Source of the DNA: Hormiphora californensis | Taxonomy: Eukaryota; Animalia; Ctenophora | Assembly: GCA_020137815.1 (NCBI GenBank) | Contig: CM035353.1 | Location: 8,432,001 to 8,496,000, forward strand | Direction: 5' to 3' | DNA: 64,000 nucleotides | In this document: one piece after another, positions 3,886 through 40,470 of the stretch | How the letters are laid out: each line of letters opens with the position of its first letter | Position numbering within the stretch: position 1 is the stretch's first letter | Notes under the pieces: model-generated | Seen by the model: only the letters and a program-made list of their open reading frames with translations | Databases searched by the model: none | Told to the model about the DNA's origin: nothing | Position numbers and translations under genes: made by a program

Positions 3886-15767
<11,882 letters not shown>

Positions 15768-16349: not shown

Positions 16350-19300
16350 TCACGAGTTCTCCTCCCCAACAGCTGCTGTAGATGCACTTGCAGTAGATGC
16401 ACCTGTAGATGAGGTAGATGCAGATGCTCTCTGCTGGGCGTATACCCTGTAAAACTTCCTTCCTTCAGGCACTTTAAATCTGTTGTTTTGTTTTCGTGCT
16501 TGACAGAACTCCTTGTCTTTTATCACACCAATCGCCCAGGGTTTTCGGCTTGGCCCCTCAAGACTAAACAGAGTAGTTAGGGGGTTAGAATAAGCACATT
16601 TTAGTTTTGCTAAGTGGTACGTGATACTATCTTTGAGTGTAGAAATGTATTATTACCTGAGTCCCAGTGCACCTAGATTGTCTGGATGTAGGAAGTATTG
16701 GTACTCTGTTGCACACACGTTAGCTACTAGGTAGTTGCACTTGCTCTCGTCGTAGTAGAAAAACACGTGGTCACCTAGTGGGGAGGGGAGGGGGTTACAC
16801 CACAATGTGGGGAGGGGAGGGGGTTACACCACAATGTGGGGAGGGAGGTTAGTAGTTACACAACAATGTAAGAAGAGGGCTACACATCAAGTAGTGGGGA
16901 GGAGGGGTACAAAACAAAATGGGGGGAGTAAAAGCGTGTCAAGTAGATAGTTCCATGTAGTATTGTTAGAGCATTGGCCTGACAGCTGCAGTAGTATAGG
17001 GAAGAAGAATTGTACCTCGTTGGAATTGTGTCACGGCTATCTCCATACACCTTGCCTTTAGTGCTCTAAGATCCTTGTTCTCAGCCTCTAACTGCCTCAC
17101 CCTCTCACCCAGGTTTACATCCCCCTCATCTCCTTCCATTTCCTGGTCAGGTACAGACTCTGTAGTGGTGGTGGTGGCTCTATTGGCTGTAGCTTCCTCC
17201 AACTGTTGGGCGTATGTCTCACGTAGTGCTGTCAATTCCTCAGCAGCCCTCTATCAAGGGGAGGGGTTAGGGAGGTATTCAGTGTTTTAATATGCCCCAT
17301 TCTCTACATGTGGCGATTAGATACTCAGGGCGATACTTACAGTTTTCACGTTTTTAAGATCCCGTTCACTCTCCATCTGGGCCATTCTCAATAACTCCTT
17401 GTACTCCTCTAGCGACGCAGTGAGTTCCTGGACCTGAAGATAATTTGTTATACTAAGGTTCGGAGAGGGCAGTCTTTAGTGAGACAAAGGAAGTGAGGTT
17501 GAGAATGTTAGAGGATATACCTTAGCTTCAGATAGGGATAGATTTGCTATCTTTTTGGAATTGTCATCAGCTATCTTTTCTATTGTCTCCTCCAGCTGTC
17601 CCCTATCTAGCTTCGTGTTACGTTCTAAGTCCTGTATAATCTACAAGGGTAACAGTTGGTGAGGATCATGGCATTCTAGCACTATCAAACAAGATCAGAC
17701 CCCCCTCTCTTAGAACATAACAAACTCTTTACCTTGTCCATCTCGACCCACTCTCTACAAAATGTAACTGTTTACCTTGTCCTTCTCTAAACGAAGTTTC
17801 TCCAACTCAAATGTCTTCTCCTTGTCTTTCTTGTGCTCTATTTCTAGTCGGAGGTTGGTTAGCTGCTGTCTGTGTTGTTCTGTAATTGTCTGGTTGCTTC
17901 TAACCAGGTCCACCTCCCTCTGAAACAAAACACGTGGTGAAAATAGATAATAGCTAATGGGGTCTAGGGAGTTTGGTATCATTACAATCGTTACATGTTC
18001 ACTATAATATACCTGTATACTCTTGACAGCTTCGTCCTTATCAGCGATGGATTTGTTAGCCTCCATGAGTTGTCTCTCCAACTTTTCTAAACTATCCTGC
18101 AACTCTTTCTTATCGTTCTTCCACCCTGGGGAGAGGGGGAGGGTTTGACACCCTTACACCGTGTCTAGCTGCCCATTGGACAAATACAGAGCGGAAAAGG
18201 AACTGTCACCATGAAATCTTACCTCGTGACTGTAATTTAAACGTCTCGTTCTCAGACTTGAGGGTGCTGATTCTAGTGTCTTTCTCACAGGCTAGTTTCT
18301 GGAAGGTAGCTCGTTCCTCTTTCACTGCCTCCATCTCCACCATCTTCCCCTTCATCTCCAACTGGAGGCTTTCCATTGTCTTTTGCAGCCTTGTTATTTC
18401 TTCTTGCATCTGCGACACGAGAGTATAATGTGAGAACTAAATGGTGGGGTCGCGCCTGCTGGAAAGAAATCTGTACCGAAAGGACCGTGCCTGAATCAGC
18501 ACTTTGCCGGAAAAATGAATATTAACCTGGACAACGCTCTCTTCTAATTCCTTGTTTGCGTCTGTCAGATTGTTCTCCCTTTCCTCAGCCCTCTGTAGGT
18601 CTCCTTCCAGTTTGAGACACCTTGCCAGTGACTCTGCGGAGGATGCAGCCATGGCAGGATCTATCACTGGTAGGGATGCCTGGGTGGATGCCTCGCTTGT
18701 TGGGGGGTTGGGGCGGGGAGTTGGTACTGTCAGATCCTGAAAAACTCTTCTTGCAAGTCCCTTCAAAAACGAAATTGGTGCGGCACGCATTCCCCCGCAC
18801 TCCCCCGTCTCCGACTAACTGTTTGTGACAATTATGCAGCAGTTGTTTGTGACAATTATGCAGCAGTTGCAGTACAGTTTTGGACCAGGTGTGACACTCG
18901 CTTGTTGGACATTTTTCTTGTTATTCTTGTTATCGCCCTCGTGTATAATAGGCGTCAGTTGCTCACAGGTCGGCCGCTAAGTTCACTTCACTGGGTAGTG
19001 TGCTCCATATAATTGACGCTCTATATAATGAGTTGTGGTGCTTCGTCATGACTGACTTTTGAGTGATTGTGGGACAGGTTGGGATTAAAAATCCTCACCC
19101 CCCCCCCCCCCGAGTTGTTATGTTTTAACCCTCCGTTTACATTTCGGGGGCAGGGCACGCGAAACAATCTAGCTATGCAACCCCCGATCTGGTGATGTTG
19201 AACAAGCGGCCTAGCGGATGCCGCTTTGACTGACTTTCAACTTTGCCATTAGCCATTTTCAGCGTTTTGGGCAATATTTTTCGCCGCTGTGTAGTTCTTA

Positions 19301-22300
19301 ATTCAGTAAAATGTGTGATTGTATTGAGGGTCTCTACCCTCTGATCTTGTTATCGGAACGTATATTTGTAATGCGTGTTATCAGAACTGTACCAACTACC
19401 GCATCTACCTGTGCAGTGTGGACTAATAAATTAAGGTTGGCATGACGAAATACCTTTGAGATGAGCCCTTTAGCCCACGATTTGTATCGGTTAGAGAACT
19501 TGTTCCGTCTGGCAACCTCCCCCAGGCACATACAGTACAACCTTGGTGCAATATTGATTTGTTCCAACACTGCGAACCTTCTCTTTACTCGGGTTAGATT
19601 CTCGCAGACCATTGTTAACCGACCATCACTGTTCAGGATGTTCTTCTGGCAGTGCATCACCCAGGTTAGCCGGATCAACAGGTTCTGACACAGCTCCTGG
19701 AAAGGAGGGATGGGGTCTTATTAGGGGATGGGATGGGGTGTAAGCCGGATCAACAGGTTCTGACACAGCTCCTGGAAAGGAGGGATGGGGTCTTATTAGG
19801 GGATGGGATGGGGTGTAAGTCGGATCAACAGGTTCTGACACAGCTCCTGGAAAGGAGGGATGGGGTCTTATTAGGGGATGGGATGGGGTGTAAGTCGGAT
19901 CAACAAGTTCTGACACAGCTCCTGGAAAGGAGGGATGGGGTCTTATTAAGGGATGGGATGGGGTGTAAGTCGGATCAACAAGTTCTGACACAGCTCCTGG
20001 AAAGGAGGGATGGGGTCACTCTTATTAGGGGATGGGATGGGGTGTAAGTCGGATCAACAAGTTCTGACACAGCTCCTGGAAAGGAGGGATGGGGTCTTAT
20101 TAGGGGATGGGATGGGGTGTAGTCGGATCAACAAGGTTCTGAACACAGCTCCTGGAAAGGAGGGATGGGGTCTTATTAGGGGATGGGATGGGGTGTAAGT
20201 CGGATCAACAAGTTCTGACACAGCTCCTGGAAAGGAGGGATGGGGTCTTATTAGGGGATGGGATGGGGTGTAAGTCGGATCAACAAGTTCTGACACAGCT
20301 CCTGGAAAGGAGGGATGGGGTCTTATTAGGGGATGGGATGGGGTGTAAGTCGGATCAACAAGTTCTGACACAGCTCCTGGAAAGGAGGGATGGGGTCTTA
20401 TTAGGGGATGGGATGGGGTGTAAGTCGGATCAACAAGTTCTGACACAGCTCCTGGAAAGGAGGGATGGGGTCTTATTAGGGGATGGGATGGGGTGTAAGT
20501 CGGATCACAGGTTCTGACACAGCTCCTGGAAAGGAGGGATGGGGTCTTATTAGGGGATGGGATGGGGTGTAAGTCGGATCAACAAGTTCTGACACAGCTC
20601 CTGGAAAGGAGGGGGTGTTTTTGAGGGTCCGATTTGTTGAAAGTTATCTCAGTTATTTGACAGTTTAAAACCAGCCAAAAACCAAATTACATCAAATTAC
20701 ATTGCACCTACCACTTTAGCATTAGCGAATTTGGAGTGGTATTGTATCAGCTGTCTATTGTTACTGTGAAGTCTCTGGAGCTGTTCCCGGTGTGCGGTTA
20801 TCAGGTCAGACAACACACTGACATCACCCTGGGCCATGAAGTTCTCCTGCTGGCTCCTGATCGCTGGGAGAGAGAGGGAGAGGGATGGGAGAGAGAGAGA
20901 GAGAGAAGATCGAAGCGATAGAGAGAGAGAGATCTATAGAGAGAGAGATAGATCGAGATTAGATCAGGGAGCGAAGATCGATAGAGAGAGAGAGAGAGCG
21001 TAGAATCCCCGAGCGCTCGCCTCTCTCTCTCGCGCGTCTCGCTCTCTCTCTCTCTCGATCTCCTCCGATCTGCTCGCCTCTCTAGATAGAGAGAGAGAGA
21101 TAGAGAGATGAAGATAGAGAGAGAGGAGATATGGTACGACGTTTGTATACTCACTGTTTGCATTAGCCGCCTGTTCTTCACAAATCTTCTCAGTTTGTAA
21201 AATGAGATTCTGCAGGGTAAGTAGACGCTCCTCAAGACCTCGGATATCTCTCATACCTGTGAGATATCATTGTAAATAAATAACTCTGGTTTTATTAACT
21301 AATAGCGAGGTATTAATCTTATTGTTTTGTTCAAACGCGTGGGGGGGGGGGGAGTGGGTCGAGTAAGGGATGGGTCCTGGTTACCGCCTGGTTACCCCTT
21401 GTTATCACCTAGTTACCCAACTGTTATACCTGGTGCCTGAAGGTCCATCTTCACCTTCTCCACATCCTCCTCTACACGGGGTAGGAAGGAGTTATTAATC
21501 TGGTCCATTGCTCTGCTACACTGCATGACTAGAGATCTGAGAGAGTTCTGGGTATCCTGGGCCTCGATCCAGTGTAACAGGGATATAAACTCCTGAGAGG
21601 GAGGGAGAGAGAGAGGGGTGTGAGATGGACCTGAAGGTATGGTAAATCAGGGCGGGATATGAAGGGTGTATACAACTTACAATGCCCCCAATATATATCA
21701 GGAAACTCATTACCTTCTCTTTATCGAATGGTCCGCCTAATCCCGGCACAGAGGGAGTGTGGGCAAGATCTGTACTGCTGGGTGAGGCACCAGGATCGGG
21801 AGCCCTCATACTCTCCGTTAATACCCAGACCCTGGTCACGAGTCAACCTGGGAGGAGGAGGGGGTTTTATTAGTATCCCGTTGAATCTGGCCGCTTATGG
21901 ATAGCTCATTATTATTATTCTCTGATATCACTCACCGGAATACTATCTAGCATAGTTGCTACTGCGCATCTTGTTGAGTATTCCCTGTGCTAGTGGTATC
22001 TGGGAGAGGAACCTTTACATCTTCCTCAAACTGTACCAACATCGTACCTGAGAGCGATAGGAGGGGGTCAAGAGAGGGACTCAACATCGTGTGGATAAGA
22101 GTGGATGAAGGGGGGGGGTCAAGAGAGGGAAGGAGAGTGCTAAGAGGAGCGGGTCAAGAACAGAGACGCCCATTATATCAGTACATGGTCCCCCTTGTTC
22201 CTCCCTCCTCCATTTCCACCGGATGAAAGATGTTTTAATATTAAAGCCGGACTATTTGAAACCTACAGAAGTTACACCCCCACACCCTCCACACCCCAAC

Positions 22301-23423
22301 ACCCCTCTCTACCACGTACTGTAGTGTTCCTTGTTTTGAAGGAAAGAGTCGTACAGATCGTGGAACAGTGCCACTCGACGGTTGAATCCTGCCGTTACCC
22401 CATCCAAGTTGTTGATGACAGCTGCCCAACCATTCCTCTGTAACTCCTGATCTTGTACCTGCAGGGATCACATTGTCAAATCAAGGAAGTGGAGGATTGG
22501 GGATCACATTGTCAAATCAAGGGAGTGGAGGATTGGGGTTCACATTGTCAAATCAAGGGAGTGGAGGATTGTGGATCACATTGTCAAATCAAGGGAGTGG
22601 AGGATTGTGGATCACATTGTCAAATCAAGGGAGTGGAGGATTGGGGTTCGCATATTACATCAAGATCTCATACATATCACAGATATACCACATACCAGTT
22701 GTTTAGTTCGGTTGTATATTTCCTCTGAGTATTTCTGATAGTCAGCAGCTAAATCAGCCCCTGCTTTTAGCGTGTCACAGTTCTGGCCATCATTCAGATA
22801 CCGGTCTAGCTTCTCCTGAGGTCGTAGGGTTTGGTTAATTTGTCGTTAAGACCGAACGGGGTGCGAGGGTCAATAATCGTACTTTTCTGAGGTCTATTCG
22901 GAGCTCTAATCAGGCACAAATGGCACTGATTTAGTAAGAGATATATCCAAGAATTGATGAGGGATGTATCTGTATACACTATGTAAACCTGTACAATTAC
23001 CTGTAATCTGGGATCAACAGGCAGGTTACTCTGTGCCTGTACCACGTGACACTCTATATTGCTCTTACTAAAGAGGAACAGTGGCCGCTCTGCAGTTACA
23101 AATTGGTACACACTACACTTTGGATCGAGGGCACGTCCCTGGTATGTCAGCAGCACCTGATGGGAATAGTGGTCATTCTATTTAGGGGAAGGGAAGATGT
23201 GAGTGTCTTCTCGATCCAAAACTCAACCGTACAATATTTAGTCTGATGCTTGATTAAACAGTAAACTAACGTCTAACAATCAATTTAAAATCATTGTTAC
23301 CTGCTTGTCTAGGGGTATATCAGCTAGATTGGAGAGGTGAATCTGGAGCTCATGGACCCTCTTTGAGAGGAGGGCACTGTCTATTTTATAGAGATGCCCA
23401 GAGTCCACTAGAAACACATTCAT
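16350..23423 (-). CDS. RB1CC1: RB1-inducible coiled-coil 1 / FIP200 / Atg11 autophagy scaffold, multi-exon
   Basis: N-terminal exon MNVFLVDSGHLYKIDSALLSKRVHELQIHLSNLADIPLDKQ|VLLTYQGRALDP...ERPLFLFSK. Middle exon ELCQNLLIRLTWVMHCQ...EQINIAPRLYCMCLGEVARR. Coiled-coil exons follow. The C-terminal Atg11/Claw domain reads IAVTQFQRGDHVFFYYDE...YFLHP...KPWAIGVIKDKEFCQARKQNNRFKVPEGRKFYRV. Confidence 0.88.
19667..20612. repeat. 75-bp tandem repeat (~13 copies) duplicating an RB1CC1 3' splice site plus exon start
   Basis: CCTGGAAAGG recurs at 19696, 19771, 19846, 19921 and onward. The minus-strand unit includes tttccag|GAGCTGTGTCAGAAC. Confidence 0.95.
22465..22650. repeat. 33-bp intronic minisatellite (5-6 copies) at an RB1CC1 acceptor
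   Basis: GGATCACATTGTCAAATCAAGGGAGTGGAGGAT repeated. Confidence 0.9.
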
Positions 23424-23711
23424 GGCTGGGGAGGGGAAGTTGTTCCCTCTCTCTCACCACGCTGGGGAGGGATCACTTCAATTCATAGTGCTAAACTGGG
23501 GAGAGCGGGTTCGGAGGGAGTTTGGGAAGTAGTTGGGGCGAGGGGGAGTTGGGGGGGGGGGGGGTAAGGGAAGGAGTTGGGAGGGGAGTTGTTACAAATA
23601 GTGGTGGTTGAATAAGAACAGGAAATACAGTTGTAAAAGGGTAACATCTGAATTCATCAATAAATAAACAACACCAATATAAACATCATAAAAACGTGGT
23701 CCAGGCCTGTG

Positions 23712-25921
23712 ATTACACACATGTTGTCGTTATGGGTGGTAACCAAGGTTACACACATGTGGTCGTTATGATAACCATGGTTACACACATGTGGTAGTTA
23801 TGGTAACCATGGTTACACACATGTGGTAGTTATGGTAACCATGGTTACACACATGTGGTCAGTGATCTAATCGTTGCGAGGATTTTTGCAAAAAGGGATG
23901 ACTGATTTCACTGCAAATTTCCTAAAATCCATATTAGGACATCTTATACTACTTGAATTAATTTAAAATTTGGTATACTTATGTAAATATGTTTAAATTA
24001 GTATACTACATGTGTTTTAAACCTTCAACTCAAATAATGTGGAGCCCAAAGGCAAAGATGCTAAATGCTCCCTGGATTTTCGAGTTTTATCAGTATGACA
24101 GTCGGATATATGCAAATGTCTAGATAATCGATGAAACTGAACCGTAATTACCGAAGAGTAAAGGTTTGCTCCTAATATGCGGAGCCATAGCTGCTTGAAG
24201 GGGTAGCTTTTTTTAATGCCCATTTGAGGTAAGATAAACATAATTGTATCTTCTAAAATTAATAGAACTTCTTTCATAAATGTTAAAAATAAATCTCCAT
24301 GCTAAAAAATGTACCCTGATATGCTCATATTGTGTGGAGCGGGTGTTATATTCATGGGTCCAAATTATTATTTTTTACTTCGATACTTTGCGGGTTCAAT
24401 TCACAAGCAATCAAACTAAAAACGTATGCTAAGTGGTAACAATAACATACCAGTACATATTTCATCACTAATTTAATCTTATGACTCAAAATTTGTGGAG
24501 CAAATCACGATTTCCCCCTCCATTTTCGCAGTATAAAATATCTACTTGAATATCAACATAATAAGCTTTATTTGCATCAAGATAACGTTCATCGGACCAT
24601 AATATTACAGAAATAACATTGCCAAATCATGGGACTCAAATTGTGTGGAGCAGTTACACATAAAACCTTGGAATACCATCAGTTACTTTGGCCTTGACAA
24701 ATCGAGTTATATTACAACCAATTGAGTATTTAACCAAATATTAGCTATAATTTAACCAAATATTAGTTATAGCCTTACTCAAAATCAGGGGAGCAATGAT
24801 TTTCCTCTCTGAGAATCAGAAACAGAGCATGCCATAAGGTTTTGGGCGAATTTTATGACTGTCTGGACACAAATACGGCTCCTTTAGGGGCTCCTCCACA
24901 CAATTTGAGTAACTTTTTGTGGTTAAAATGGTAAATTGTTGGTGCCCAATTATCTGTACATCTTATTTTCAAAATCAAGAACCGGTTAAACCGCAACTCA
25001 AACGATGTGGAGCAGTTTTTGTCAAAAAATCAGTATTTGCTCCACATATTTTGAGTTAGTATCTTCGAAATACACAAGAATCTTGCTCCACTATCATTTT
25101 CCTAACTTAATTGACTTATTTCAAGAAGCTACTCCTATTACTTTTTGATTTATTACTCTATTTGGAAGTATAGCTGCAGATCTTCCGTCGATTAAATTTG
25201 GAATAAATTATCGGCTAGGAAAAATCAGCTCCACACAAATTTGAGCAAATGTTTTGATCAAGTTAATGACTTAAAAAGCTCCTAAAATGTCTCTAGAAAC
25301 TAATAGTTTATGAATAAAATGTAAAGTAAATTTAAGTAACCCCAAAGAGTAAGATTTGCTACAAAAAATCGATGTGCTCCGCACAATTTGAGTTCCTGAC
25401 TTTTAATTTTTAAACGGTATAGCTAGAAATAATTTGATTGTATATTTACTAAAATTTCAAGGAGAAAGGATGAAAAACATCTCCTCTAGAGGGGGCTCCG
25501 CAGAATTTTGCTCCACACGTGTTTAAACGGCTATAACTTTGCTTTAGAGCAAGTAAATATGTTCTAGTTTTCACAGAAATTTAGAGTAAACAATTGTACA
25601 CCGGTCTAGTGGTATTATGAGTACCAGTAATAATAGGAGCATATTTAAATATCTAAATACAAATTTGTGAAAAATCCTCGCAACGATTAGATCACTGACC
25701 ATGTGGTCTTTATGGTAACCATGGTTACACACATGTGTTCGTCATGGTAACCATGGTTACACACACATGTGGTCGTTATGGTAACCAAGGTTACACACAT
25801 GTGGTCGTTATGGTAACCATGGTTACACACATACATGGTCGTTATGGTAACCATGGTTACACCCATGTGGTCGTTATGGTAACCATGGTTACACCCATGT
25901 GGTATTTATGGTAACCATGGT
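23712..25921. repeat. ~32-bp minisatellite (ATGTGGTCGTTATGGTAACCATGGTTACACAC) interrupted by the TIR element
   Basis: About 4-5 units to the left and about 7 units to the right of the insertion. Each unit contains the palindrome GTAACCATGGTTAC. Confidence 0.9.
23857..25700. mobile_element. 1844-bp AT-rich non-autonomous DNA transposon with 31-bp perfect TIRs and apparent 4-bp TSD (ATGT)
   Basis: TIR GGTCAGTGATCTAATCGTTGCGAGGATTTTT at both ends. ATGT at 23853-23856 and 25701-25704. Many internal TGTGGAGC/GCTCCACA motifs. Confidence 0.85.
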
Positions 25922-25926
25922 CACCA

Positions 25927-27937
25927 CTACATCATGATTGAGTCACAATATTCCCGGTATCTCTGATTGTACAGCTCCTTTTCTTTTTCAGTCATCTTCT
26001 CAACGTGCTCCCCCTCAACCTCTGTGAGAGATATCGGCCGACCTGTAACATTGGGGGTGTTAGTGTTAGCAGGGAAACAAGAGATATTGGCGGACCTTTA
26101 ACATTGGAAACAAGGGTGTTAGTAGGGAAATAAGAGATATTGGCGGACCTAATATGGGAGATGATTGTCACACAGGGAATATATCTTCTAATTTGCACTC
26201 ACCTTGCACAGTTACAATCCACTCATCCTCATCCTCATCCTCCTCTTCCTCCTCTCCCTCTCCTGGGTTTATAGGAGAGGAGGAGCCACTAGTGGGGGCA
26301 GAGGACGCATTCATCTCACTCTGAATGGATGGAATTTATACTCTTTTTGAGTTTTGTGTTGAAGTAGAATCTATGTAGTGATGAATATATGTAGTGAGCA
26401 TGAGCGAGATGGTTACCATGGTTACCTGGATTAGCTGTGATATATAGTCCTCCTTGCCAATGTTAGGTAGCACACCACTTATAGCACTCTGTCTTGAAGA
26501 GGACACTGGCTCGTGGGTCAAACTATCATTACTATTTGTGTTGACAACTGTACTCTCAGCCAGCCATACAGGCAACTCCTTCTTTTGCTGCTCCTGTTTC
26601 TCTCTTTCTCCCTCCAGGCTCACCTTTATACTGCTCTCCTGTGGGAATGGAGATGTTTATGAAGGAGCAGTAGAGAGTTGGTTATGTTTATGAAGGAGCA
26701 GTAGAGAGTTGGTTATGTTTTTTGAAGGACCACTGTACCTGATACAGATTATATTCCTTCCTATTACTCTGCCATAACGGTACATTCCTCGTCTTCTTTT
26801 CTGCTATTTTCAGTTTCAAAGGTTCAGGTGCCAACAACTCCTCTGATAGTTTAGTTTTCTCGATCAACTTGAGACCCTCCGTGAAGGGTTTAGTTTGGTC
26901 GTTAAACAGACTCACTAGACTCCTGTCTTGGAGGCTTTTTAACTGTACCTCATCCTCAACTAATGGTGTATCACAGTGGATGCAGAGTAGCTGACCTGTT
27001 GTTGGATCAAACAGGTCCTTCACATCTAGATCACTGAACCTGATGGGGAGAGGAGGTGGGGAGGGGGACTAAACAATGTGAGGTTAACTAGTTGAGTTAT
27101 CCAAGCTAAGAAGGAGAGTTAGAAACTCTAATAATACTGAGGGTAATAATACCTCAGGTTACAAGCTGTACAGAGGTGAAACTGACAGTCCTGGTTTAGC
27201 TGGTCATCCTGGTCTACCTTCTTCCTCATCCTGTCTAGCTTATACTTGACTACATCAACAAACACCTTGTAACTGGAGGGAGAGAGTGTGAGGGAGAGTG
27301 AGAGAGAAAGAGAGAAAGAGAAAGAGATGGGTATGGTAGTAATGATAACCTACTTTACAAAATAGTAGTTGAACTTTAGAGTCCCCCCTCCAGGACCCAC
27401 CTCCTCCTTGTCTCCCTTAGTAATGGACTTTATCAGCTTATCCTTCTTTATCATCTCTATACTAGACCGAACCTGAAACAGAGGATGTCCGGTTATTACC
27501 CGGCCCAGAACTACTAGAAATTCGAGGTTGCCGGCAACTTCTAGAAACTAGAAGGTACCGGTCAATTAACTGAACTCTTGTGACAAATCACAACAACACC
27601 GCCTATCTCACATCTAGTATTGATTTACCGATTTTTTGTCAAATTTGAGGAGCTCTATGAGATCGTCTTCTCTTAAACAGGGATGTTTAATTAGAACATC
27701 AATAATTAGGGCCTCCTCGGGATTGTAAAACGCAGACATCACCATCTTGATCAACCTCACAAAATCTGGGGAGATCTCTAGGGGAGAAGGGGGTTAGATA
27801 GATGACCGTCACTAGGGGAGGGAAGACTGTTAATAGTGATTTTGATTCGTTTGTTCTAAGTTCGCTAAAGTTAGGGCAGAATTGATTGAGTTTTTACCTT
27901 TCAAGCCTTCTTCTACATCTCCTTCTAGTTTTGACAT
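25927..27937 (-). CDS. GTF2E1: General transcription factor IIE subunit 1 (TFIIE-alpha), multi-exon
   Basis: Exons LIIDVLIKHPCLREDDLIELLKFDKK, NYYFVNYKVFVDVVKYKLDRMRKK, zinc ribbon DLFDPTTGQLLCIHCDTPLVED, ELPVWLAESTV, an acidic tract, and C-terminal MTEKEKELYNQRYREY. Confidence 0.92.
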
Positions 27938-27983
27938 TGCTATGGAAAGAATTTAGTTTGGACTGGGACTGGAGTTGATGTTA

Positions 27984-28025
27984 GTTACGAAATAACCCCT
28001 CCCTTGCCAGGGGTTATTTCGTAAC
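27984..28025. other. Perfect 17-bp-stem hairpin between AP4M1 and GTF2E1
   Basis: GTTACGAAATAACCCCT-cccttgcc-AGGGGTTATTTCGTAAC. Confidence 0.8.
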
Positions 28026-28363: not shown

Positions 28364-30690
28364 TCATACTCGGAAGATGTAGTTGGTACCATGACTAACA
28401 CTCCGAGCCCACTTGTAGGGGAGGTAGTTCTGACGCTGCTCCGTTACCTGCAACAAGGCAGGGTATTAGAGAGGATATTAGGAAGGGGGGGGGGTGGAGA
28501 TATTATAGAGAAGGATGGTAAGAATGGTCCGAAATAGTTCCCATCCATGAACTACCTTGAGTTTCTTGATGTGAATATCACTGCAGGTGTAACTCTGACA
28601 TTCGAACAGTAGGGAGATGGGTCCAATGTTAGAGGTTGGGTTCTCCGGCCATTCACCCAGCGGTTTTATCTGAAACAGGTCGTGTACTATCAGCTATTTC
28701 TGGATGTGTCTATCTGGACGGGATTGAAACGGTTCCTAGGGGGTATCTATTTCCCCTACCTTCAATTTAATTTGTTTCTCTTGGTTGCCATCCATGTATG
28801 GAACCTGCCACTGAACTATCCTCTTGCTCGCGGAACTAACAGTACTCGTCCGGTCGGAGGATTTCACACTCTCCAGATCATATGGGAATGGAATAACTAG
28901 GGATATCGACTGGCACCTAGTGGGGGGGGGGTTCGTTGGAGAGAAGGGCAAGGAAACTCTCTCTACAAAATTCCCCTTAAAAATTTTTTTGTTGCCCTGG
29001 GGAATGGTATTTTTAAAATTTTTAAAAAGGGGGGGGGGGAAATTAAAACCGCCCTATTGAAAAAGGGAATTTTTTTCCCTTTAAAATTTTTTTTAGTTTT
29101 GCTCCCCTTTTGGTACCGAAGGAAGGGTAGGGGTTTTATTCCCCAAAGGAGGGTAAAATTTCGAAAAAAACGGGTCCACATTGTTTTTCAAACATTTTCA
29201 TGGCGGGGGGGGGAAAATTTTTTGAAAAATAGAGGGAAGAGGTTTAGGATTTTAAAAAAGGAAAGGAGAGGGGGGAAAAAGTGGGGGAAAAAAACCCGTT
29301 AAAGGGAAAAAAAAAAAAAGAGGAGAGAAAGGGGGGAGGGGGAAGGGGGGGGGAGAGAAGAAAAAAAGGGACCAAAAAAAAATTCCCCTTTTTGGACTGG
29401 GGGGGAAAAAAAAAAAGAAAGGGGGGGGGCCCAAAAAAGGGGGGGAAAAGGGGGAGGATAAGGGGGAAAGAAAAAAAACCTAATTTTAAAAAAGGGGGGG
29501 GGGTTTCTTTTTTCCCCCTTTTTCACAAACATCCAAAAATAAAATTTTCCCTGAAGGGTAACAATTAAACTTCCAAATTATTTTTTTTCTTCCCCTTCAT
29601 TTTTTCTACACCCAAGGAAGGGGGGTTTTCTTTATTTTTGCATGAAGGAAAACCCCCCCCAAAATTTTTTTTGGGCCCTTTCCCCCAAAATAAATAAAAT
29701 TATCCCCCCAAAAAGGGCCCCCCGGGAAAAAAGTGAAAAGTCCCGCAAAAAACCTGAAAAAATTTAGGCAAAAATTTTTTTTGGGGGGGTTCCAAAAAAT
29801 TTAAGGGGTTTTTTACCAAAAAAATTCCCCCGGATGAAAAAGGGGGCCGGGCCAATTTTCCGGGGGGAAAAAAAAAAGGGTTTTTAAAACGAGGGGAAAA
29901 ATTTTTAAATGAAAAGAAGAGAAGATAAAAAAAGGGGAGGGGTAAAAGAAGGAAGAAGAATTAGAAGAAGAAAGAAAAAAAAAAAAGGGGGGGGGTTTTT
30001 TTTTGGGGGGGTTTTTTTTTTGGGGGCCCCCCCCCCTTTTTGGGTTGTTTTTCGTGGGGGGGGGGGGGCCCCCCCGGGGGGCCCCCCGGGGGGGGGGGGG
30101 GGGCCCCCCCCTTTCCCAAATCAGAATTTAAAAATCTGCATCCGAACCCTTTCCCTCCATAATAAAAGGAAAAATTTGCCCTTTACTTGGGGGGCCCAAA
30201 ATCCTTTATTATTTTAAAGGACGGTGTGGGTCCTCTAACCCCTCTTTTTGCGATAGGTTTGAAAAACTTGTGTGAGTTCCCGAGTCGAGTTTGGCAATAC
30301 AGCTACCTTATTATTATCATCATTAGCTGTTATATTTTATATATTTACCCGATATTTTGTTGAGTGATTCGATAATATAGAGAGGTGAGAGATTCTCCTT
30401 CGCTAGGATAACCACAAAGAACATGCCACCTCGGTATACTGATACGTAGGTGCACCCACCTAGGGGAGGGGGGTTAGAAACTGTACTCTATAGGGGAGAG
30501 GGAGGATTATTGTTAAACACATTACTGTCCCCCACCTACCTGCAATAAGTACGGGAGGTATTTTCTGGGGCCCATTCTGCTTTATCTTCTCAACAAATGG
30601 ATCTGTAACGGATCTATCGTGTTCCTGACGCATATTCTTGAATACAATAACCTCCCCGATATTGGAGAGAATAAAGAACACGGATATCAT
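28364..30690 (-). CDS. AP4M1: Adaptor protein complex AP-4 mu subunit; central part lies in low-quality sequence
   Basis: N-terminus MISVFFILSNIGEVIVFK matches AP4M1 MISQFFILSSKGD. C-terminus FECQSYTCSDIHIKKLK|VTEQRQNYLPYKWARSVSHGTNYIFRV matches the AP-4 mu ending (HTCSGLQVRFL...HKWVRHLSHSDAYVIRI) better than the AP-3 mu ending. Confidence 0.8.
28900..30250. other. Low-quality, homopolymer-inflated sequence inside AP4M1
   Basis: Abrupt switch to long G/C/A/T runs where the conserved middle of the mu subunit should be. Confidence 0.8.
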
Positions 30691-31313
30691 AGCTAGTGGT
30701 GGGTATTAGAGATGTTAAGTCTGGATTATAATAGTGGTTTATAGAATTAGAGAGATCTCCTAACCTGGATACTTTGTGTGTAACAGTGGATAACTAGGAT
30801 TTGAGGAAAACTGTCTATGTAGAAGTGTCAAGTGTGGTTAGTGGTGTACACTATTATACAGTGCGTGTAGTTACAACTGTAGTGTGTATTTTAGTGTATT
30901 ACACTGTCAGGACTGGTCTATATTTTATAGTGTCTGTGCAGTTGTGGTGGGATGACATTGCGCGCTCACAACACAAGAAGGACCTCGCGCGCTACACACA
31001 TGACTGTGTGTTTGTGTGACACGCAGGGTGACACAATCAAGGGGGTGAACTGTGTGACACATTTCCATGGACCGTCTGTGTGACCTGTTTGTACATGTCA
31101 CAACAAGGAAACCTGGTCTAGAAAACATTATAGAACAAACTAGATCGATACAAGAACATAAAAAGCTCCCAAGTTAGGAGGATTATAAGTTAAAAAAGTT
31201 AAAAAGTGAAAAAGTGAAAAAGTTTAAAAAGTTGAAGCTTCCCGCACAACAATACCTGTGATCCAGTTCAGTTACCGGCTGGTGGAATTCCAGAACGAAG
31301 TCACACGGCGATG

Positions 31314-32198
31314 TCATCCCTCAGGGTCGGTTCTGAGGACGCCTAAGTCACGATCTGGTCTTCCTGGTAAAGTCTTTCTCGCTCGAAAAGTGAGTTTTAC
31401 CTTCGCAATAAGCAACTTATGATCAGATCCTAGGGAGCTCAGCGCCTCGGACGTGTCGGTGTCCTTAATACTACTCCTCCACTTCTTCCTTATTAGTATG
31501 TAATCTAGGGTGGCCTTCTGCTGTTTCCCGTCCGCGGACGGGACGTCTGACAGGAATGTCCACAAACGACTCTTCTTCTTCTGGAATCTAATGTTAGCGG
31601 CCTCCAAGTTGGTTTCCTCCATAGTTTCCTTGAGAAGGACACCGTTACGGCTGGTGGTACGGTGATAGTACCATCCAGAGAGAGCTCCTTCCCAACCCAT
31701 GCAACAGTTAAAGTCACCACAAACAATCAGGAGATTGTGAGCAGGTAATCCGTGTATGTATTCCCTTAGCTCGTTATGGAACTGCTCTACTTCATCAGAA
31801 TCGGCATCCTCTGTTGGTGAGTAGACGGTAACAAGCGTTAGTTTGGGATTGCCGGCGAAGGTGATGGCCAGGATCCGATTAGAAACCACTCTTGTATCAA
31901 TGATGAACTCCGATAGGTTGGTCCCCATTAAGATTCCTACCCCTCCCACAGACTCACCCATACTGTTCTGCCAGGCTGATGATGTAAACAGAATTGAGTC
32001 TGGCCCAGCCTGGGTTCTCTTAACGTCCTCTTGATGGACTATTTGGTGCCCCTGAATACACAAGAATCCAATGTCATGTTTACAGAATTTAGAGAATTTT
32101 TCAGCCAGCTCGCTGACTTTGTCAGCTGTTAGGAGTGTTCTGCAGTTGAAGGTGCCTATGCGTGTTCCGCGTAAAACTTTATTCATGGCTATTACCAT
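31314..32198 (-). mobile_element. Non-LTR retrotransposon (RTE-like) apurinic endonuclease (APE/EEP) domain ORF, no RT attached
   Basis: 294-aa ORF with RIGTFNCRTL, GVGILM, RILAITF, TLVTVYSPT, GDFN, SRNG, LDYIL and SDH motifs. The usual QE reads QG. The ORF stops just after the endonuclease domain. Confidence 0.85.
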
Positions 32199-32480
32199 TC
32201 TAGTAGAAAGATGATTGTTCGATCACTAAAACAACTATCTGGACATTGCTACATAGGGAGAGGGGAGAAGGTTAGGTAAAGTTGAATGAAATGACAGAGA
32301 TCAAAGATTGTTAAACATGCAAAAAGAATTTAGCCAAAGGAACAGGAAAGAGGGGAATTACACAAAATCACACAATATTTATCTCATAAACAGTTTTGAA
32401 AGTCTCTCTCTCTCAGATCTCTCCTTTTCCAGTAGCAGCAAAGAACTATATAACAAAATATATATTCAACTATATTACTG

Positions 32481-34047
32481 TTACGTTGAGAAGAACAAGA
32501 TAACGACAACTATCATTATGACAAGGAGGATCCCAATAATCAGGTTCTGCTTCTTTCCGTCAACTTTCTCAAGGATTTTATCAACCTGGGGTGATAATGG
32601 GGGTGATATGGGGGCTAGATCACAAACAAGAAAAAAGGGAGCTGGGAGGGGCCTCAACTTAGCAAGTAGCAGTCTAGTTCAGTATTGTAAAGGATTATAG
32701 GGCCCATTATTGTAGGGGTTTACCTTTTTCTGAACACTCTGCATTCGTTTCTCAGTTTGTGACATATCCGAGTAGAAATCATCCAATAACTGGTTCTGAT
32801 CCTCCACTTCATCTCCAATAGCAGTACCAATCTGCTTCAACCGTCCTATACTTTGACCAACAATGTTCAACTGCTCGTCCTGTTCTCGCATTATCTGTTG
32901 TTGTTGAGTCATCGACTTTTCAATAAATACCTAGATAGGGGGAAGGGGGTTGTGAACTGAATAAATACCTAGATAGGGGGAAGGGGGTTGTGAACTGTGA
33001 GGTAGAAAGGGGGGAATAAGGGAGAACGAGAGAACGGCTCAATATTAGTATCAGTACCTCGTTACTCCTGTTGTTAGCTTGTTGTGCGGCTGTATACCGA
33101 TCAATGCTTATCTAAAAGGGGGGGGGGTGTTAGCTATTATATCCGGGATATATACAAACATGTAGTTTTTAACTTTCAATTTCAAAAAAGAGAAGAACAG
33201 AATAATACATGATATAAGATATTGTGCCACTATATGTACTTGTTCGTCGCTTACGCTAGTAGAAGCACTGCTATACTGAGGGTTATTCAGGCTGGCTCTA
33301 ACTGCTTCACACTGATCTTTTGACATCTGTATAAAACTCTTCCTGTTACGCAGTTCATCTTCTGTAATATTGAACCTGGGCAGGGATGGGTTCAGTTATC
33401 AGGGGGACAGGGAGGGAGGTTAGAGGGAGGGATTATTAGAGAGAGAGGGGAGTTAGGTTAGGGGAGGGATGGGTTCAGTTATTAGGGGGACAGGGAGGGA
33501 GGTTGTAATGGAGAGATATGGGGGATACATCATACAGTAGCAGTCTGCAGACCTGCATCTAAATGCTGTCACACCTACCTGTGTCTATCTAGCTCAATGG
33601 AAGATACAGCCTCCTCTAGATCCAAGATATCTCCCTGTGTACTTTCTAAAGCGTTCATTATCTTCCCTGAGAAAGGGGAGGATATTAGTCGACTAATAGT
33701 GGACAGAAACTCACTAAATACTACGCGGGGATGGTAAGCAACAAGCATGAGCGGATAGAATGGTAGCTACTCGTTGGTATGTAAATACTACGCGGGGATG
33801 GTAGATGAGTGGATAGAAAGGTATTTAGAATCACCAGTTGATTACTCATTGTTAAGTTCTAACCCTCCTCGCGGGGCGTGGAGAGGGGGTCGATCGAGGC
33901 AATTTACTCACCCTTTACAGCTGTTCTCTCCTGTTTAGCAACACTGCTAGTACCACTAGCTAGTTTCTTCCACCTCTCTAGGTTCCTGTTCATCTCCGAT
34001 ATAGAGAGCTCCGCATCCCTCTTTACTATTAGAAAGGGGTCCTCCAT
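32481..34047 (-). CDS. STX6: Syntaxin-6 (Qc-SNARE), multi-exon
   Basis: Start MEDPFLIVKRD, GDILDLEEAVSSIE, FNITEDELRNRKSFI. SNARE motif QQQIMREQDEQLNIVGQSIGRLKQIGTAIGDEVEDQNQLLDDF. C-terminal TM anchor LIIGILLVIMIVVVILFFST. Confidence 0.9.
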
Positions 34048-34267
34048 TGCTAGCTACTGGGCTGTAGTGCTACTTAGTACTTGAACTAACTGGTACTGGG
34101 GGCTGTACTACTACTGGTACTAAGATATTCTGGTTCCGCTGCTACATTGACATTGTGCTAGAAGGAATTTAAGGAGTTAAAAACTACCAACAACAATTCC
34201 AACACAACAACTAGTTAGCTTGTAAAAATATCTCGATAACTTAACACAGTATAAAAACACAATGTAT

Positions 34268-35955
34268 TCATTGTTCTCTATCCCTTGGTTTTGCTGTCTT
34301 CTCCTCTTCTATCTCAATATCTGTATCAGACTTTAGAGCTTCCACAGGAGCCCCATCACCAACATACCAATCCTTGAACTCTGGAGAGGGATTGTTGGTA
34401 ACACATCTTTTAAAAGAGAGGGTCCAGCAAGGGTTAGGATTTGAAAGGAGGTATAAGTATTTGGAAGGAACACTGGAGTTGCCTGACACTGTGTTCCGAA
34501 AAAGTATGAACAATCCAAATGAATGAAGATGATCGACGATAGTAGTTAAAAGTGGATCACCTACCGTCGATTCTGTCAGCCCAGTTATCCTTTATCGGAG
34601 TTATAGGTTTAGGTTTTAACCTTTCTTCTCCATACTTATCTAAATACTGTTGTAGCCTCTCTTCGTATGGAATAGGATTATGTTCCTGAAATCGGTACCA
34701 TATATGGGTGGAACAAGTAATTCAAAATTAACAAACATTTGAAGTGAATAGAAATCTGCGAGATTGATAAATTAGCTAAATAACTAAACTACCTTACTCT
34801 CGTTTTTTAAGAAACGCTTTAGTAAGAAACTTTTTTATAAGAAACTTTTCAAATGTAAATCACACAATTCAGAGACACCACAACAAAATAGAATACCCCT
34901 AACTTGTTTAGTTTCTTGATAAAGGAGAAATTCTTTTTGTTTTTGGATTGCTTACACCTGTAGTTTCCTAGAAAAAAAAGTTTCTTATTTAAAAGTTTCT
35001 TGAAATATGCGAGCTTAATTAACGAGAGTAAGGTATTTGATTGATAATTAAACTAAACAACTATTACCGTTTGTGCTTTTTGTAGCTTTCTCTGCTGTTT
35101 CAAGTTCTCTACAAATTCCTGTATCGGTTCCTGTAGCTTCTGTGTAGCTGTCTTCACCTGAAACATACAGATACAATAACAGTCAACACAACCGGCACAA
35201 CATACAGATACAGATACCATGGAAGTACAAAATACAATAGAGACTGATTTTAAACCAACACTGTACAGTGTACAGTGTACACAGAACTGTTTTAGTTACA
35301 GTTTTAGCTTTAGATAATGTGTGTGTCATATTGTTGTTACCTCTCCATAGCAGACCTCACACATAAAGTAGACCCGGCGTGGTGCACCACACACACTGCA
35401 CGTAGTTACTGGCATATCAAGTGGGACCTGGGAGGAGAGGGGAGGAGTATTATAGATAGTTGTTTAGTGGGACATGCGGGCGCGGGGGAGGGGTGTGTTG
35501 TGTTATCAAGTGGGACCTGGGAGGAGGAGTATAGTTGTTTAGTGGGACCTGGGAGGAGGAGTATAGTTGTTTAGTGGGACCTGGGAGGAGGAGTATAGTT
35601 GTTTAGTGGGACCTGGGAGGAGGAGTATAGTTGTTTAGTGGGACCTGGGAGGAGGAGGAGGGGCGTGTTGTGATATCCATCTAGGTTTTTAGGTGTTTAA
35701 TGACCCAAAATGTTATACCTTCCATGCCATTCGCCGTTCAATACGTTTCATCTTTTTCGACTTTTTCCGTTTGGGAACACCCATTAGTAAGATGGAGCTC
35801 TCCTTTTCAAATGTATCCAATACCCACGACTCCCTCTCTGCTTGGTGTGTGAGAGGTAGAGTGTTGTGGAGGTGTGCTACTACAGGGTAGAGGTATCTCC
35901 TGGCTACATCCTGAATACACTGGTCTAACACCGCCCCTACCACCTTGGTTAGCAT
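34268..35955 (-). CDS. MRPL32: Mitochondrial ribosomal protein L32 (bL32m), 5 exons
   Basis: Presequence, then MGVPKRKKSKKMKRIERR, then zinc ribbon CSVCGAPRRVYFMCEVCY. Exons about 35955-35719, 35427-35341, 35157-35068, 34685-34563 and 34380-34268 are phase compatible. Confidence 0.8.
34790..35035. mobile_element. Tc1/mariner-type MITE in an MRPL32 intron
   Basis: TACCTTACTCTCGTT ... AACGAGAGTAAGGTA terminal inverted repeat with TA ends. Confidence 0.7.
35410..35660. repeat. 32-bp minisatellite duplicating the MRPL32 exon-2 acceptor
   Basis: GTGGGACCTGGGAGGAGGAGTATAGTTGTTTA units. The minus strand reads cccag|GTCCCAC in each copy. Confidence 0.85.
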
Positions 35956-36252
35956 ACTGGTAGCTACCGAGAGAGAGAGTGGGGGAGATATTATATAGGC
36001 AGCTAGGAGAGAGAGTGGGGGAGTTATAATATTAGGGGAGATTATATTGGGGTAGATTGGGTAAAAAAAATAAAAGGTTATCAAAGTGTAATAATTAATT
36101 GTAACAATAGATATAAACGGATGAAGTGTAAAATGCCGTGCTCGATCCTCTCTCCCTTCGAAAGTTGGGTTTGAACAAAACAAAAAATAATAATGGTGCA
36201 GCTAATCTCTGATAAAGCTGGTCAAATCTTTAAAAAACAAACACTCTCCTCC

Positions 36253-37236
36253 CTACGCAGTGACAGATCTAGCAGGACAGTTGTGTGTTGATATCTCTCT
36301 GAAACTCCCGACCTCCATCACACACCTGGGACACACAAACCTCTCCCAAGAAGGCCCCTTCACTAGCCCACTACTAATGGTCTCTCTAACAGGTACAAAC
36401 TCTATCTTAACATTCCTAGCCCCACAAACATGGTCCTCCATCCCCGAATCAAGGGGAAACTCCTCCCCACACTTCTCACATTTCAACTCCCTCTGCTCAC
36501 CTCTCTCAGTAAACATACAGCTGTGCTCCACCCGGTAGTGAAGTGACAACTCATCAGGAACCATAAACCTCCTCTCACACAACTGACAGGATCTCTGTGC
36601 TATCTGGATTGTATCTCTGTGTTGTTTACAGCGGGATACATGGCACTGGATACCCCGCACTGACCGAGATACAAACCCGCACAATGTACAGGTCCTGTCC
36701 CTCTCTGGTACTGGTTGTTGAGTGAGGTGGGCGGGTCCGATCTTCTCATAGTCTTCATCTTCTGCATCTTCCTTTTTCCTCTTCTTCTCCCCCTGGTCAC
36801 TACCGTCTCCCTCCTCCTCGCCTGCGTAGTCCTGTGGTGCTTTAGCGCGACAAGACCGCTGGGATCGGGGGTTAGCATCGTGCTCCAATACCCAACATTT
36901 GGGTTTGTGTTTCTGTAGCTCTTCTTCGGTTTTATAGGCATTACCACAAGCACAGTACTCTAAGTTAGAAGAGAGGGGTGTAGTAGTGGTACTGGGTTGT
37001 TGAGGGGGTGTAGGTGGGTCTGTTCGAGGTGGTTCAGGGTTAGACTTGAGACTATTAACCAAGTGTACCACCTCTGTCAACACATCCCTCTCGGAGACAA
37101 CATCTGGGTGTATTGTGTTGTAGGCGTGCACAGCTGATTTGACAGTGTTCTCCAGTGAGCTGTAGGACCTGTCCTCTGAGGATGAGATAGTGGTTAGGAT
37201 GGTGGAGACGAGGTTCTGAGGGAGGGTCTCTGACAT
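36253..37236 (-). CDS. C2H2-type zinc-finger protein, single coding exon
   Basis: 327-aa ORF with several CxxC...H fingers (CACG..HKPKC, CTLC..HVSRC, CQLC..HYRVEH, CEKC..HVC, CPRC..HNC) and an NLS-like KKRKK. The ATG is preceded by ctctcag. Confidence 0.8.
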   Translation of the reverse strand: MSETLPQNLVSTILTTISSSEDRSYSSLENTVKSAVHAYNTIHPDVVSERDVLTEVVHLVNSLKSNPEPPRTDPPTPPQQPSTTTTPLSSNLEYCACGNAYKTEEELQKHKPKCWVLEHDANPRSQRSCRAKAPQDYAGEEEGDGSDQGEKKRKKEDAEDEDYEKIGPAHLTQQPVPERDRTCTLCGFVSRSVRGIQCHVSRCKQHRDTIQIAQRSCQLCERRFMVPDELSLHYRVEHSCMFTERGEQRELKCEKCGEEFPLDSGMEDHVCGARNVKIEFVPVRETISSGLVKGPSWERFVCPRCVMEVGSFREISTHNCPARSVTA

Positions 37237-38030
37237 CTTCCTGAGAGGGAGAGAGTTAGTAGAGTTAGTAACAGGAAGGGAGAGAGTTAGTAACAGGGAG
37301 GGATGGTGTTAGTAACAGGGAGGGATGGGGGAGGGGGAGAGGATGGTGGGGACGAGGTTCTGAGGGAGGGTCTCTGACATCTTCCTGAGAGGGAGAGAGT
37401 TAGTAACAGGAAGGGATGGTGTTAGTAACAGGAAGGGATGGTGTTAGTAACAGGAAGGGATGGTGTTAGTAACAGGGAGGGATGGTGTTAGTAACAGGAA
37501 GGGATGGTGTTAGTAACAGGAAGGGATGGTGTTAGTAACAGGGAGGGATGGTGTTAGTAACAGGGAGGGATGGTGTTAGTAACAGGGAGGGAGGGGGTTA
37601 GTAACAGGGAGGGATGGTGTTAGTAACAGGGAGGGATGGTGTTAGTAACAGGGAGGGAGGGGGTTAGTAACAGGGAGGGATGGTGTTAGTAACAGGGAGG
37701 GATGGTGTTAGTAACAGGGAGGGAGGGGGTTAGTAACAGGGAGGGAGGGTGTTAGTAACAGGGAGGGAGAGAGTTAGTAACAGGAAGGGATGGTGTTAGT
37801 AACAGGGAGGGATGAGATAGTGGTTAGGATGGTGGAGACGAGGTTCTGAGGGAGGGTCTCTGACATCTTCCTGAGAGGGAGAGAGTTAGTAACAGGAAGG
37901 GATGGTGTTAGTAACAGGGAGGGATGGGGGAGGGGGAGAGGATGGTGGAGACGAGGTTCTGAGGGAGGGTCTCTGACATCTTCCTGAGAGGGATGGATGT
38001 TAGCAGAAGGGAGGGGGTTAATAACAGGGA
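37185..38030. repeat. 22-bp minisatellite with ~25 TACTAAC motifs (minus strand) plus 3 extra copies of the zinc-finger acceptor/ATG block
   Basis: GTTAGTAACAGGGAGGGATGGT units. The block CTGACATCTTCCTGAGAGGG occurs at about 37230, 37374, 37860 and 37973. Confidence 0.9.
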
Positions 38031-38292
38031 AGAAAGGTGTTAGGAGACATGGAGCCTGGATGGAGGTAGGGGCGTTAGGAGTAGACAGAGAGTAATACGA
38101 ATTTTGTTTGTAAGAACATCAATAAATAAAGCACACTGTAAAAATATTCATTCTCTTTCGATAATATCAGCTTTTTCGCTTTCCCTCTCTCCCTCCCTCT
38201 TTTTTTCTCTGCGACCCTCTTTTTGTCCTCTTTTTTCCAATCTCTCTCTGTCACCCTGTACACACTGTAATACAGTTTACATATCCCCCTGT

Positions 38293-40288: not shown

Positions 40289-40470
40289 CCTCGCGTCGTC
40301 AGTTCATCCTGAAACAAAAGTTGGCTTAAATACAGAGGAAACTGACCACTGCACAGATTTGGAAACGTTGTGGGCTACGCAACCGGCGACAGAGACCGGG
40401 TGGACCGCCCAAAAACAACATTTCTTAAAAAACATCCCAAAAATTTAAAAAATAAATAAGGAACCATAAT

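What the first reader, a model, noticed from the sequence alone, without database searches (positions are those of the whole stretch)
16350..40320. Candidate SL trans-spliced polycistronic operon: WDR70-ZnF-MRPL32-STX6-(APE)-AP4M1-GTF2E1-RB1CC1
Seen: seven unrelated housekeeping genes lie head-to-tail on the minus strand. Stop-to-start gaps are about 220-620 nt; the GTF2E1-RB1CC1 gap is about 270 nt once the TE and minisatellite are removed. Each ATG sits just after an acceptor-like AG, usually with a pyrimidine tract: ccccag|ccATG (RB1CC1), ttccatag|caATG (GTF2E1), cactag|ctATG (AP4M1), ctag|caATG (STX6), ctcggtag|ctaccagtATG (MRPL32), ctctcag|gaagATG (ZnF), and tttcag about 20 nt upstream (WDR70). 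No obvious upstream donor or exon fits in the short U-rich gaps. TTI1 (ttttag|aATG) and ETS (ttgtag|cATG) show the same start signature. Known: this architecture marks SL trans-spliced operons in nematodes, tunicates and flatworms. Inference: this is a long operon resolved by trans-splicing in a probable early-branching animal.
Basis: partly seen in the sequence, partly recalled or inferred. Interest (0 to 1): 0.8.

Follow-up and report, generated by a model that had tools for sequence, protein, structure and literature searches.

The report
Candidate gene operons in comb jelly
Seven unrelated housekeeping genes of a comb jelly sit head to tail on one DNA strand, each with an unpaired splice-acceptor site in front, and they are likely read as two shared transcripts cut apart by leader splicing, an arrangement not yet shown by RNA in this animal group.

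Summary
The window is from a ctenophore (WDR70 tree). Seven minus-strand genes are confirmed. Five of six junctions are 220-426 nt, two only after discounting repeats; STX6-AP4M1 is 1,790 nt. All seven starts have an unpaired acceptor within 120 nt (P 0.0001-0.002, window chosen after looking), and the short gaps mostly lack donors and GC patches. A GC patch, TATA-like box and two donors before AP4M1 suggest two units (4+3 genes). A Mnemiopsis gene model fuses MRPL32 to STX6 in the same order, so that pair is conserved; numbering suggests the whole run is not. No leader addition or shared transcript was shown: only contigs of a relative were available. Leader splicing is known in ctenophores; a 2021 paper says operons are unreported there, though I recall an older claim I could not open. 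The scan noted leader-capped elements elsewhere in this genome and candidate operons in other animals. Verdict: good candidate, about 60% polycistronic at least in part.

The parts
41610..41677 (.). CGCG/GCGC-rich patch, candidate promoter of unit 1
   Evidence: 13 tetramers, 11 CpG per 100 nt; function inferred
40475..41578 (.). Palindromic (foldback) repeats upstream of WDR70
   Evidence: Inverted arms of 297 nt (99%) and 117 nt (96%)
40308..40310 (-). Unpaired acceptor of WDR70 (exon would start at 40308, 20-nt UTR), followed by a 2-codon upstream ORF
   Evidence: Score 5.7; uORF; similar residues in front of the start of P0002
38293..40288 (-). WDR70, no intron seen; several frameshifts in the 3' part, likely assembly errors
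   Evidence: the relative's contig has 181 letters where the window has 185
37240..38057 (-). Acceptors of the zinc-finger gene (38055, 37983, 37870, 37384, 37240) in a minisatellite that repeats acceptor and start codon four times
   Evidence: Scores 12.5-14.7; repeats; branch-point-like motifs
36253..37236 (-). C2H2 zinc-finger ORF, 328 aa, single exon
   Evidence: Weak zf-C2H2 hits; translation; no homolog search left for it
34268..35955 (-). MRPL32, 5 exons, 215 aa; acceptors at 36002 (9.4) and 35963 (7.5)
34157..34159 (-). Best acceptor for STX6, 111 nt after the MRPL32 stop, giving a 110-nt UTR
   Evidence: Score 5.4, no upstream donor above -0.6 in the gap
32481..34047 (-). Syntaxin-6, 6 exons, 236 aa
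   Evidence: 98% identical to P0135 over its whole length; introns bridged by a relative's contig
31314..32250 (-). LINE-type endonuclease ORF (about 294 aa from 32198) without reverse transcriptase, behind an acceptor at 32248
   Evidence: Exo_endo_phos E 8e-8; acceptor score 9.1
30924..30989 (-). GC patch (30960-30989) and TATA-like hexamer (30929): candidate internal promoter of unit 2
   Evidence: 7 tetramers; hexamer; no copy elsewhere in the window; function inferred
28364..30690 (-). AP4M1; middle unreadable (low-quality sequence about 28960-30300); acceptors at 30764 (8.0), 30720 (7.2), 30692 (4.7)
25927..27937 (-). GTF2E1, 8 exons, 391 aa; best acceptor at 27962 (5.7)
   Evidence: 69% identical to P0133 over its whole length
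23713..25926 (.). 32-bp minisatellite interrupted by a 1.85-kb element with 32-nt terminal inverted repeats (23856-25701)
23495..23497 (-). Best acceptor for RB1CC1 (72-nt UTR), followed by a 2-codon upstream ORF
   Evidence: Score 11.0; uORF
16350..23423 (-). RB1CC1 (FIP200/Atg11-like), multi-exon
   Evidence: ATG11 domain; colinear matches to P0140 from residue 1; named relatives

Best explanation
The run is a cluster of seven same-strand ctenophore housekeeping genes that is likely transcribed as two polycistronic units, WDR70-ZnF-MRPL32-STX6 and AP4M1-GTF2E1-RB1CC1, each likely resolved by spliced-leader trans-splicing. In this model polymerase starts upstream of WDR70 and again at the GC patch before AP4M1. 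Each upstream mRNA is cut and polyadenylated shortly after its stop, and the leader RNA is joined at the unpaired acceptor 111-402 nt after that stop, which caps the next gene. Shown: gene order, gaps, acceptor and donor scores, MRPL32-STX6 linkage in Mnemiopsis. Inferred: promoters, leader addition at these sites, the shared precursor.
For: All 7 starts have an acceptor scoring at least 5.4 within 120 nt; P 0.0001-0.0002 against three nulls and 0.002 against the sense strand with its real introns. Best upstream donors in the five short gene-to-gene gaps are 3.8, 0.9, -0.6, 5.6 and 3.1, against a true-donor median of 8.1 and an antisense median of 5.9 per 250 nt. Those five gaps hold 0 CGCG/GCGC tetramers and 0.9-2.1 CpG per 100 nt, while such patches lie at 3271-3372 near a pair of apparently divergent starts, upstream of WDR70 and upstream of AP4M1. 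Only 111 nt separate the MRPL32 stop from the STX6 acceptor. Mnemiopsis model ACHWQZ_G015576 is MRPL32 fused to STX6. Its linker ends in residues matching the STX6 5' UTR of L001 read in frame, and a separate 236-aa STX6 exists (P0137). Fused models are a known artefact of operons (PMC7986045, passages). Leader trans-splicing is common in ctenophores (PMC8527503, passages).
Against: No leader was seen joined at any site and no RNA spanning two genes was seen. Because over half of ctenophore mRNAs carry a leader, unpaired acceptors are expected without operons. The 120-nt window was chosen after seeing STX6 (110 nt), the matrices rest on 37 sites, and three acceptors (5.4-5.7) sit only at the top 5% of background AGs. 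The GC patch is an uncalibrated promoter proxy: 4 of the 7 patches in the window lie in repeats or in a likely small element. The run is probably not conserved as a block: Mnemiopsis WDR70 and MRPL32-STX6 are 588 locus tags apart, and the Bolinopsis WDR70, STX6 and GTF2E1 accessions are 113 to 848 apart on same-length contigs. A fused model can also arise from tight spacing alone.
Confidence: 0.45

Rival explanations
1. Each gene has its own compact promoter and a short outron, and the leader is spliced onto monocistronic pre-mRNAs; the tight packing reflects a compact genome.
For: A leader is on at least 56% of reads in Hormiphora (PMC8527503). The block is probably not conserved in Mnemiopsis or Bolinopsis. 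Four of five short gaps leave 218-402 nt between stop and acceptor, enough for a 3' UTR and a core promoter.
Against: MRPL32-STX6 leaves 111 nt for 3' UTR, promoter and outron, and the pair is conserved and fused in a Mnemiopsis model. No GC patch occurs in the five short gaps.
Confidence: 0.3
2. All seven genes and the endonuclease ORF form one operon from a promoter upstream of WDR70.
For: All are on one strand. The endonuclease ORF has its own acceptor (9.1) 233 nt after the STX6 stop, and AP4M1 has acceptors of 8.0 and 7.2.
Against: STX6-AP4M1 spans 1,790 nt with a GC patch, a TATA-like hexamer and two donors of 7.9 and 7.7. In L001 the sequence after STX6 is an antisense LINE, not AP4M1.
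Confidence: 0.15
3. No leader is involved: the AGs are start-codon context or acceptors of ordinary 5' UTR introns, spliced from donors in or beyond the upstream gene.
For: All 7 starts have a purine at -3 and four share the same three letters at -4 to -2. A relative's STX6 contig keeps those letters but continues upstream without an acceptor-like pyrimidine before the AG. Donor candidates exist before AP4M1 and GTF2E1.
Against: Stronger acceptors lie further upstream at all genes, donors are scarce in four short gaps, and the phylum trans-splices most mRNAs.
Confidence: 0.1

Closest known systems
Ctenophore spliced-leader trans-splicing (Hormiphora californensis, Mnemiopsis leidyi; PMC8527503, passages read; Derelle 2010 not held, known only through citations)
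   Same: Same phylum; unpaired acceptors just upstream of coding starts are what this process needs.
   Different: That paper describes leaders and gene clusters that share a leader exon but never uses the words operon or polycistron (0 occurrences). The leader of this species was not seen.
Hydra RFC140-flp operon (PMC3273482, passages read)
   Same: Non-bilaterian; unrelated genes joined by a short T-rich spacer with a polypyrimidine tract and an acceptor near the start codon.
   Different: Two genes, proven by transgenes (no promoter in the spacer, acceptor needed). Here there are 3-4 genes per unit and no experiment.
Chaetognath operons (Paraspadella gotoi; PMC12460157, passages read)
   Same: Housekeeping genes, up to nine per operon, no operon-specific leader, defined by spacing under 250 bp plus leader reads.
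   Different: Defined genome-wide with leader reads. Gaps here are measured from the stop codon and are 220-426 nt.
C. elegans and tunicate operons (PMC7986045, passages read)
   Same: Head-to-tail genes resolved by leader addition; operonic genes are sometimes annotated as one fused gene.
   Different: C. elegans uses a dedicated SL2 and about 100-bp spacers; Ciona and Oikopleura spacers are about 1 and 30 bp. Neither a dedicated leader nor true intercistronic distances were measured here.

Membership tests
SL-resolved eukaryotic operon | Same-strand, head-to-tail genes with short spacers | tested here: met
   5 of 6 junctions are 220-426 nt stop to start, two after discounting repeats; the sixth is 1,790 nt
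SL-resolved eukaryotic operon | 3' splice acceptor upstream of each coding start | tested here: met
SL-resolved eukaryotic operon | No cis donor paired with that acceptor | tested here: inconclusive
   Best donor below the 10th percentile of true donors in 4 of 5 short gaps, 5.6 before GTF2E1, 7.9 and 7.7 before AP4M1; donors inside upstream genes not excluded
SL-resolved eukaryotic operon | Host lineage uses spliced leaders | tested here: met
   Ctenophore by tree, 100/100; leaders in Hormiphora and Mnemiopsis (PMC8527503); not shown directly for this species, and no leader gene in the window
SL-resolved eukaryotic operon | Leader joined to the downstream mRNAs | tested here: inconclusive
   The first 18 letters of L001 match the 3' end of the published Hormiphora leader at 12 positions (counted by eye; chance 0.02-0.09) but lack its 8-letter core even at 2 mismatches. 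Only 30 of 140 loose letters of the relative's STX6 contig were shown.
SL-resolved eukaryotic operon | Polycistronic precursor RNA across the gaps | not testable with these tools
   No raw reads of this species were listed; only contigs of a run under 90% alike
SL-resolved eukaryotic operon | One upstream promoter, none in the spacers | tested here: inconclusive
   GC-patch proxy only: absent from five short gaps, present before WDR70 and AP4M1
Nematode SL2-type operon | Dedicated leader class on downstream genes | not testable with these tools
   Needs 5'-complete reads
Conserved operon | Same neighbours in other ctenophores | tested here: inconclusive
   MRPL32-STX6 yes in Mnemiopsis; WDR70 and GTF2E1 probably not adjacent, judged by numbering only; ZnF, AP4M1 and RB1CC1 not placed

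The most novel reading that the evidence does not exclude
Comb jellies, possibly the sister group of all other animals, have true multi-gene operons resolved by leader splicing. MRPL32-STX6 is an old operon kept from this lineage to lobate ctenophores, and neighbours, including a LINE-derived endonuclease, join such units by bringing only an acceptor. Start-stop micro-ORFs right behind the leader junction may tune translation of these mRNAs.
Probability: 0.4. Interest if true: 0.7.

Novelty: new member of a known kind. Interest (0 to 1): 0.5.

Why it matters
Leader-resolved operons are known from nematodes, tunicates, flatworms, chaetognaths and Hydra. A 2021 methods paper lists ctenophores among groups with leader splicing but no reported operons (PMC7986045). 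A proven ctenophore operon would extend the link between trans-splicing and operons to the base of the animal tree. It would also mean that some ctenophore gene models are fused operon neighbours, as the Mnemiopsis MRPL32-STX6 model appears to be. The conserved pair is a direct test case in a laboratory species. The mechanism itself would not be new.

Tried and rejected
No genome is held for the window. No RNA holder was listed; the one added run is a guessed RNA run kept as contigs, under 90% alike. In one search, 4 contigs were laid (WDR70, MRPL32 end, STX6, AP4M1) and none bridged two genes; contigs cannot show ends or absence, so this counts neither way. The WDR70 metagenome scan found 0 relatives among 112 stretches; the STX6 scan found 1 among 395. 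No leader gene was found in the window: one chance-level match inside AP4M1, 7 matches of the 8-letter core against 3.7 expected and none at a gene start, and no Rfam hit. The endonuclease ORF matched no solved structure and no part of the LINE in L001. The Atlas could not read the zinc-finger protein. Derelle 2010 and Moroz 2014 are not held, and the Hormiphora supplements could not be read; these may already describe ctenophore operons or leader variants. Ten literature searches listed no paper on ctenophore operons. The WDR70 frameshifts were not read as a pseudogene, since relatives are intact and the window has visibly poor stretches.
Full report
Organism. The WDR70 ORF's best named hit is Mnemiopsis leidyi (56% over 98% of the query), while other animals give about 50% over two thirds. 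In a tree of 18 WDR70 proteins the window falls in a 13-row clade (100/100) with Mnemiopsis and Bolinopsis, but outside their six-row group and beside the unnamed P0002. It is a ctenophore distant from those two. The assembly is error-prone: the WDR70 tail switches frame several times and about 28960-30300 is unreadable.

Genes. Spliced models close without internal stops for MRPL32 (215 aa), STX6 (236 aa, 98% to P0135) and GTF2E1 (391 aa, 69% to P0133). RB1CC1 matches P0140 in order from residue 1 to the ATG11 domain. AP4M1 rests on weak but consistent hits of its first and last exons to the ends of AP-4 mu-1. The zinc-finger gene is a 328-aa ORF with weak C2H2 hits. Between STX6 and AP4M1 lies an endonuclease ORF with no reverse transcriptase behind it. 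Gaps from stop to start are 313 (1,056 to the coding copy), 297, 220, 1,790, 426 and 2,503 nt (289 without transposon and minisatellite).

Splice signals. I built acceptor and donor matrices from 37 introns of the five spliced genes; all 37 had AG and GT at the given coordinates. At STX6, GTF2E1 and RB1CC1, however, those AGs score -3.7, 1.2 and 2.3, under the 10th percentile of true acceptors (4.1). Every start has a purine at -3, so these look like start-codon context. Two relatives agree for STX6. A contig of run X1 continues 140 letters upstream, and the 30 shown resemble neither the window nor the published leader end. The spliced copy L001 has 96 letters before its ATG. Better acceptors lie at 40308, 38055, 36002, 34157, 30764, 27962 and 23495 (scores 5.4-14.7). 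That all seven reach 5.4 within 120 nt has P 0.0001-0.0002 against three nulls and 0.002 against the sense strand with its introns; the 120-nt width was picked after looking. Donors upstream of these acceptors are weak in four short gaps (3.8, 0.9, -0.6, 3.1), marginal before GTF2E1 (5.6) and strong before AP4M1 (7.9, 7.7).

Promoter proxy. The window has 7 clusters of CGCG/GCGC. One lies at 3271-3372 near two apparently divergent starts, one beyond the foldback repeats upstream of WDR70, and one at 30960-30989 before AP4M1 with a TATA-like hexamer at 30929. The other four lie in repeats or in what looks by eye like a small element at about 15900-16040. The five short gaps have none. This is the basis for splitting the run into four plus three genes; it is a proxy, not a measurement.

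Conservation. Mnemiopsis model ACHWQZ_G015576 (473 aa) carries an L32p domain in its first half and a whole syntaxin-6 in its second. The last 17 linker residues match the STX6 5' UTR of L001 read in frame, and the same syntaxin exists alone as a 236-aa protein (P0137). So MRPL32 and STX6 are neighbours in the same order in a distant ctenophore and were merged by annotation, which PMC7986045 names as a known error for operonic genes. The rest of the run is probably shuffled. Mnemiopsis WDR70 is G014988, 588 tags away on a contig of the same length. Bolinopsis WDR70, STX6 and GTF2E1 share a contig length but have accessions XP_063678641, XP_063678754-6 and XP_063677908. This rests on numbering, not coordinates.

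RNA. No run of this species was listed. The four contigs laid at 80% likeness confirm several introns and each lie on one gene. The start of L001 resembles the published leader end at 12 of 18 letters (by eye; chance 0.02-0.09) but lacks the core, so it is inconclusive. Leader addition and a shared precursor remain unshown.

Literature. PMC8527503 (passages; supplements unavailable) reports the leader on 56% of Iso-Seq reads and does not mention operons. PMC7986045 (passages) states that operons have not been reported in ctenophores. PMC3273482 and PMC12460157 (passages) give the Hydra and chaetognath precedents. Ten searches listed no ctenophore operon paper. From memory, Moroz 2014 mentioned operon-like clusters in Pleurobrachia and Derelle 2010 found several leader variants in ctenophores; neither could be opened, and the first would lower the novelty. 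Earlier notes of this scan report leader-capped mobile elements in the same genome; I did not check them.

Verdict. It works like a leader-resolved operon, and two units are likelier than one. Membership is unproven because the three RNA-level features are untested or inconclusive. Odds: two operons 0.45, one operon 0.15, separate trans-spliced genes 0.30, no leader 0.10. Interest 0.5.

Noticed in passing
window 40299-40307, 34145-34153, 32235-32246, 23478-23486 (minus strand): Four of the 8 best-scoring acceptors are followed within 10 nt by an upstream ORF of at most 3 codons, against 2-3% of random positions (P about 5e-5, criterion set after seeing them). The residues in front of the start of P0002 fit a conserved acceptor and micro-ORF at WDR70.
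   Followed up: partly
window 31314-32250: A LINE-type endonuclease ORF, open for about 294 codons, sits behind a genomic branch point and acceptor with no leader remnant and no reverse transcriptase. The metal-binding glutamate appears replaced (motif recalled). It may be a decayed insertion or a passenger of the STX6 transcript.
   Followed up: partly
window 37240-38030 and 19671-20613: Minisatellites that repeat an acceptor together with the first bases of its exon: four copies at the zinc-finger start and 12.5 copies of a 75-mer in an RB1CC1 intron.
   Followed up: partly
window 40475-41578: Nested foldback repeats between WDR70 and the nearest upstream GC patch.
   Followed up: no
window 42774-43415 and 44338-44769: Two tandem ETS-domain exons on the minus strand with near-identical domains: a duplicated gene or alternative last exons.
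   Followed up: no
window 6808-8439 and L001 1219-3117: Reverse-transcriptase LINE pieces, 56% identical at protein level; in L001 the element lies antisense just after STX6.
   Followed up: partly
P0134 (Bolinopsis GTF2E1 model): It runs 44 residues past the end seen in P0133 and in the window, possibly another model that reads into downstream sequence.
   Followed up: no
window about 18740-19450: No match to RB1CC1 residues about 488-726 of P0140 was found by tblastn, and the first part of that stretch has no obvious exons; assembly error or divergence.
   Followed up: no
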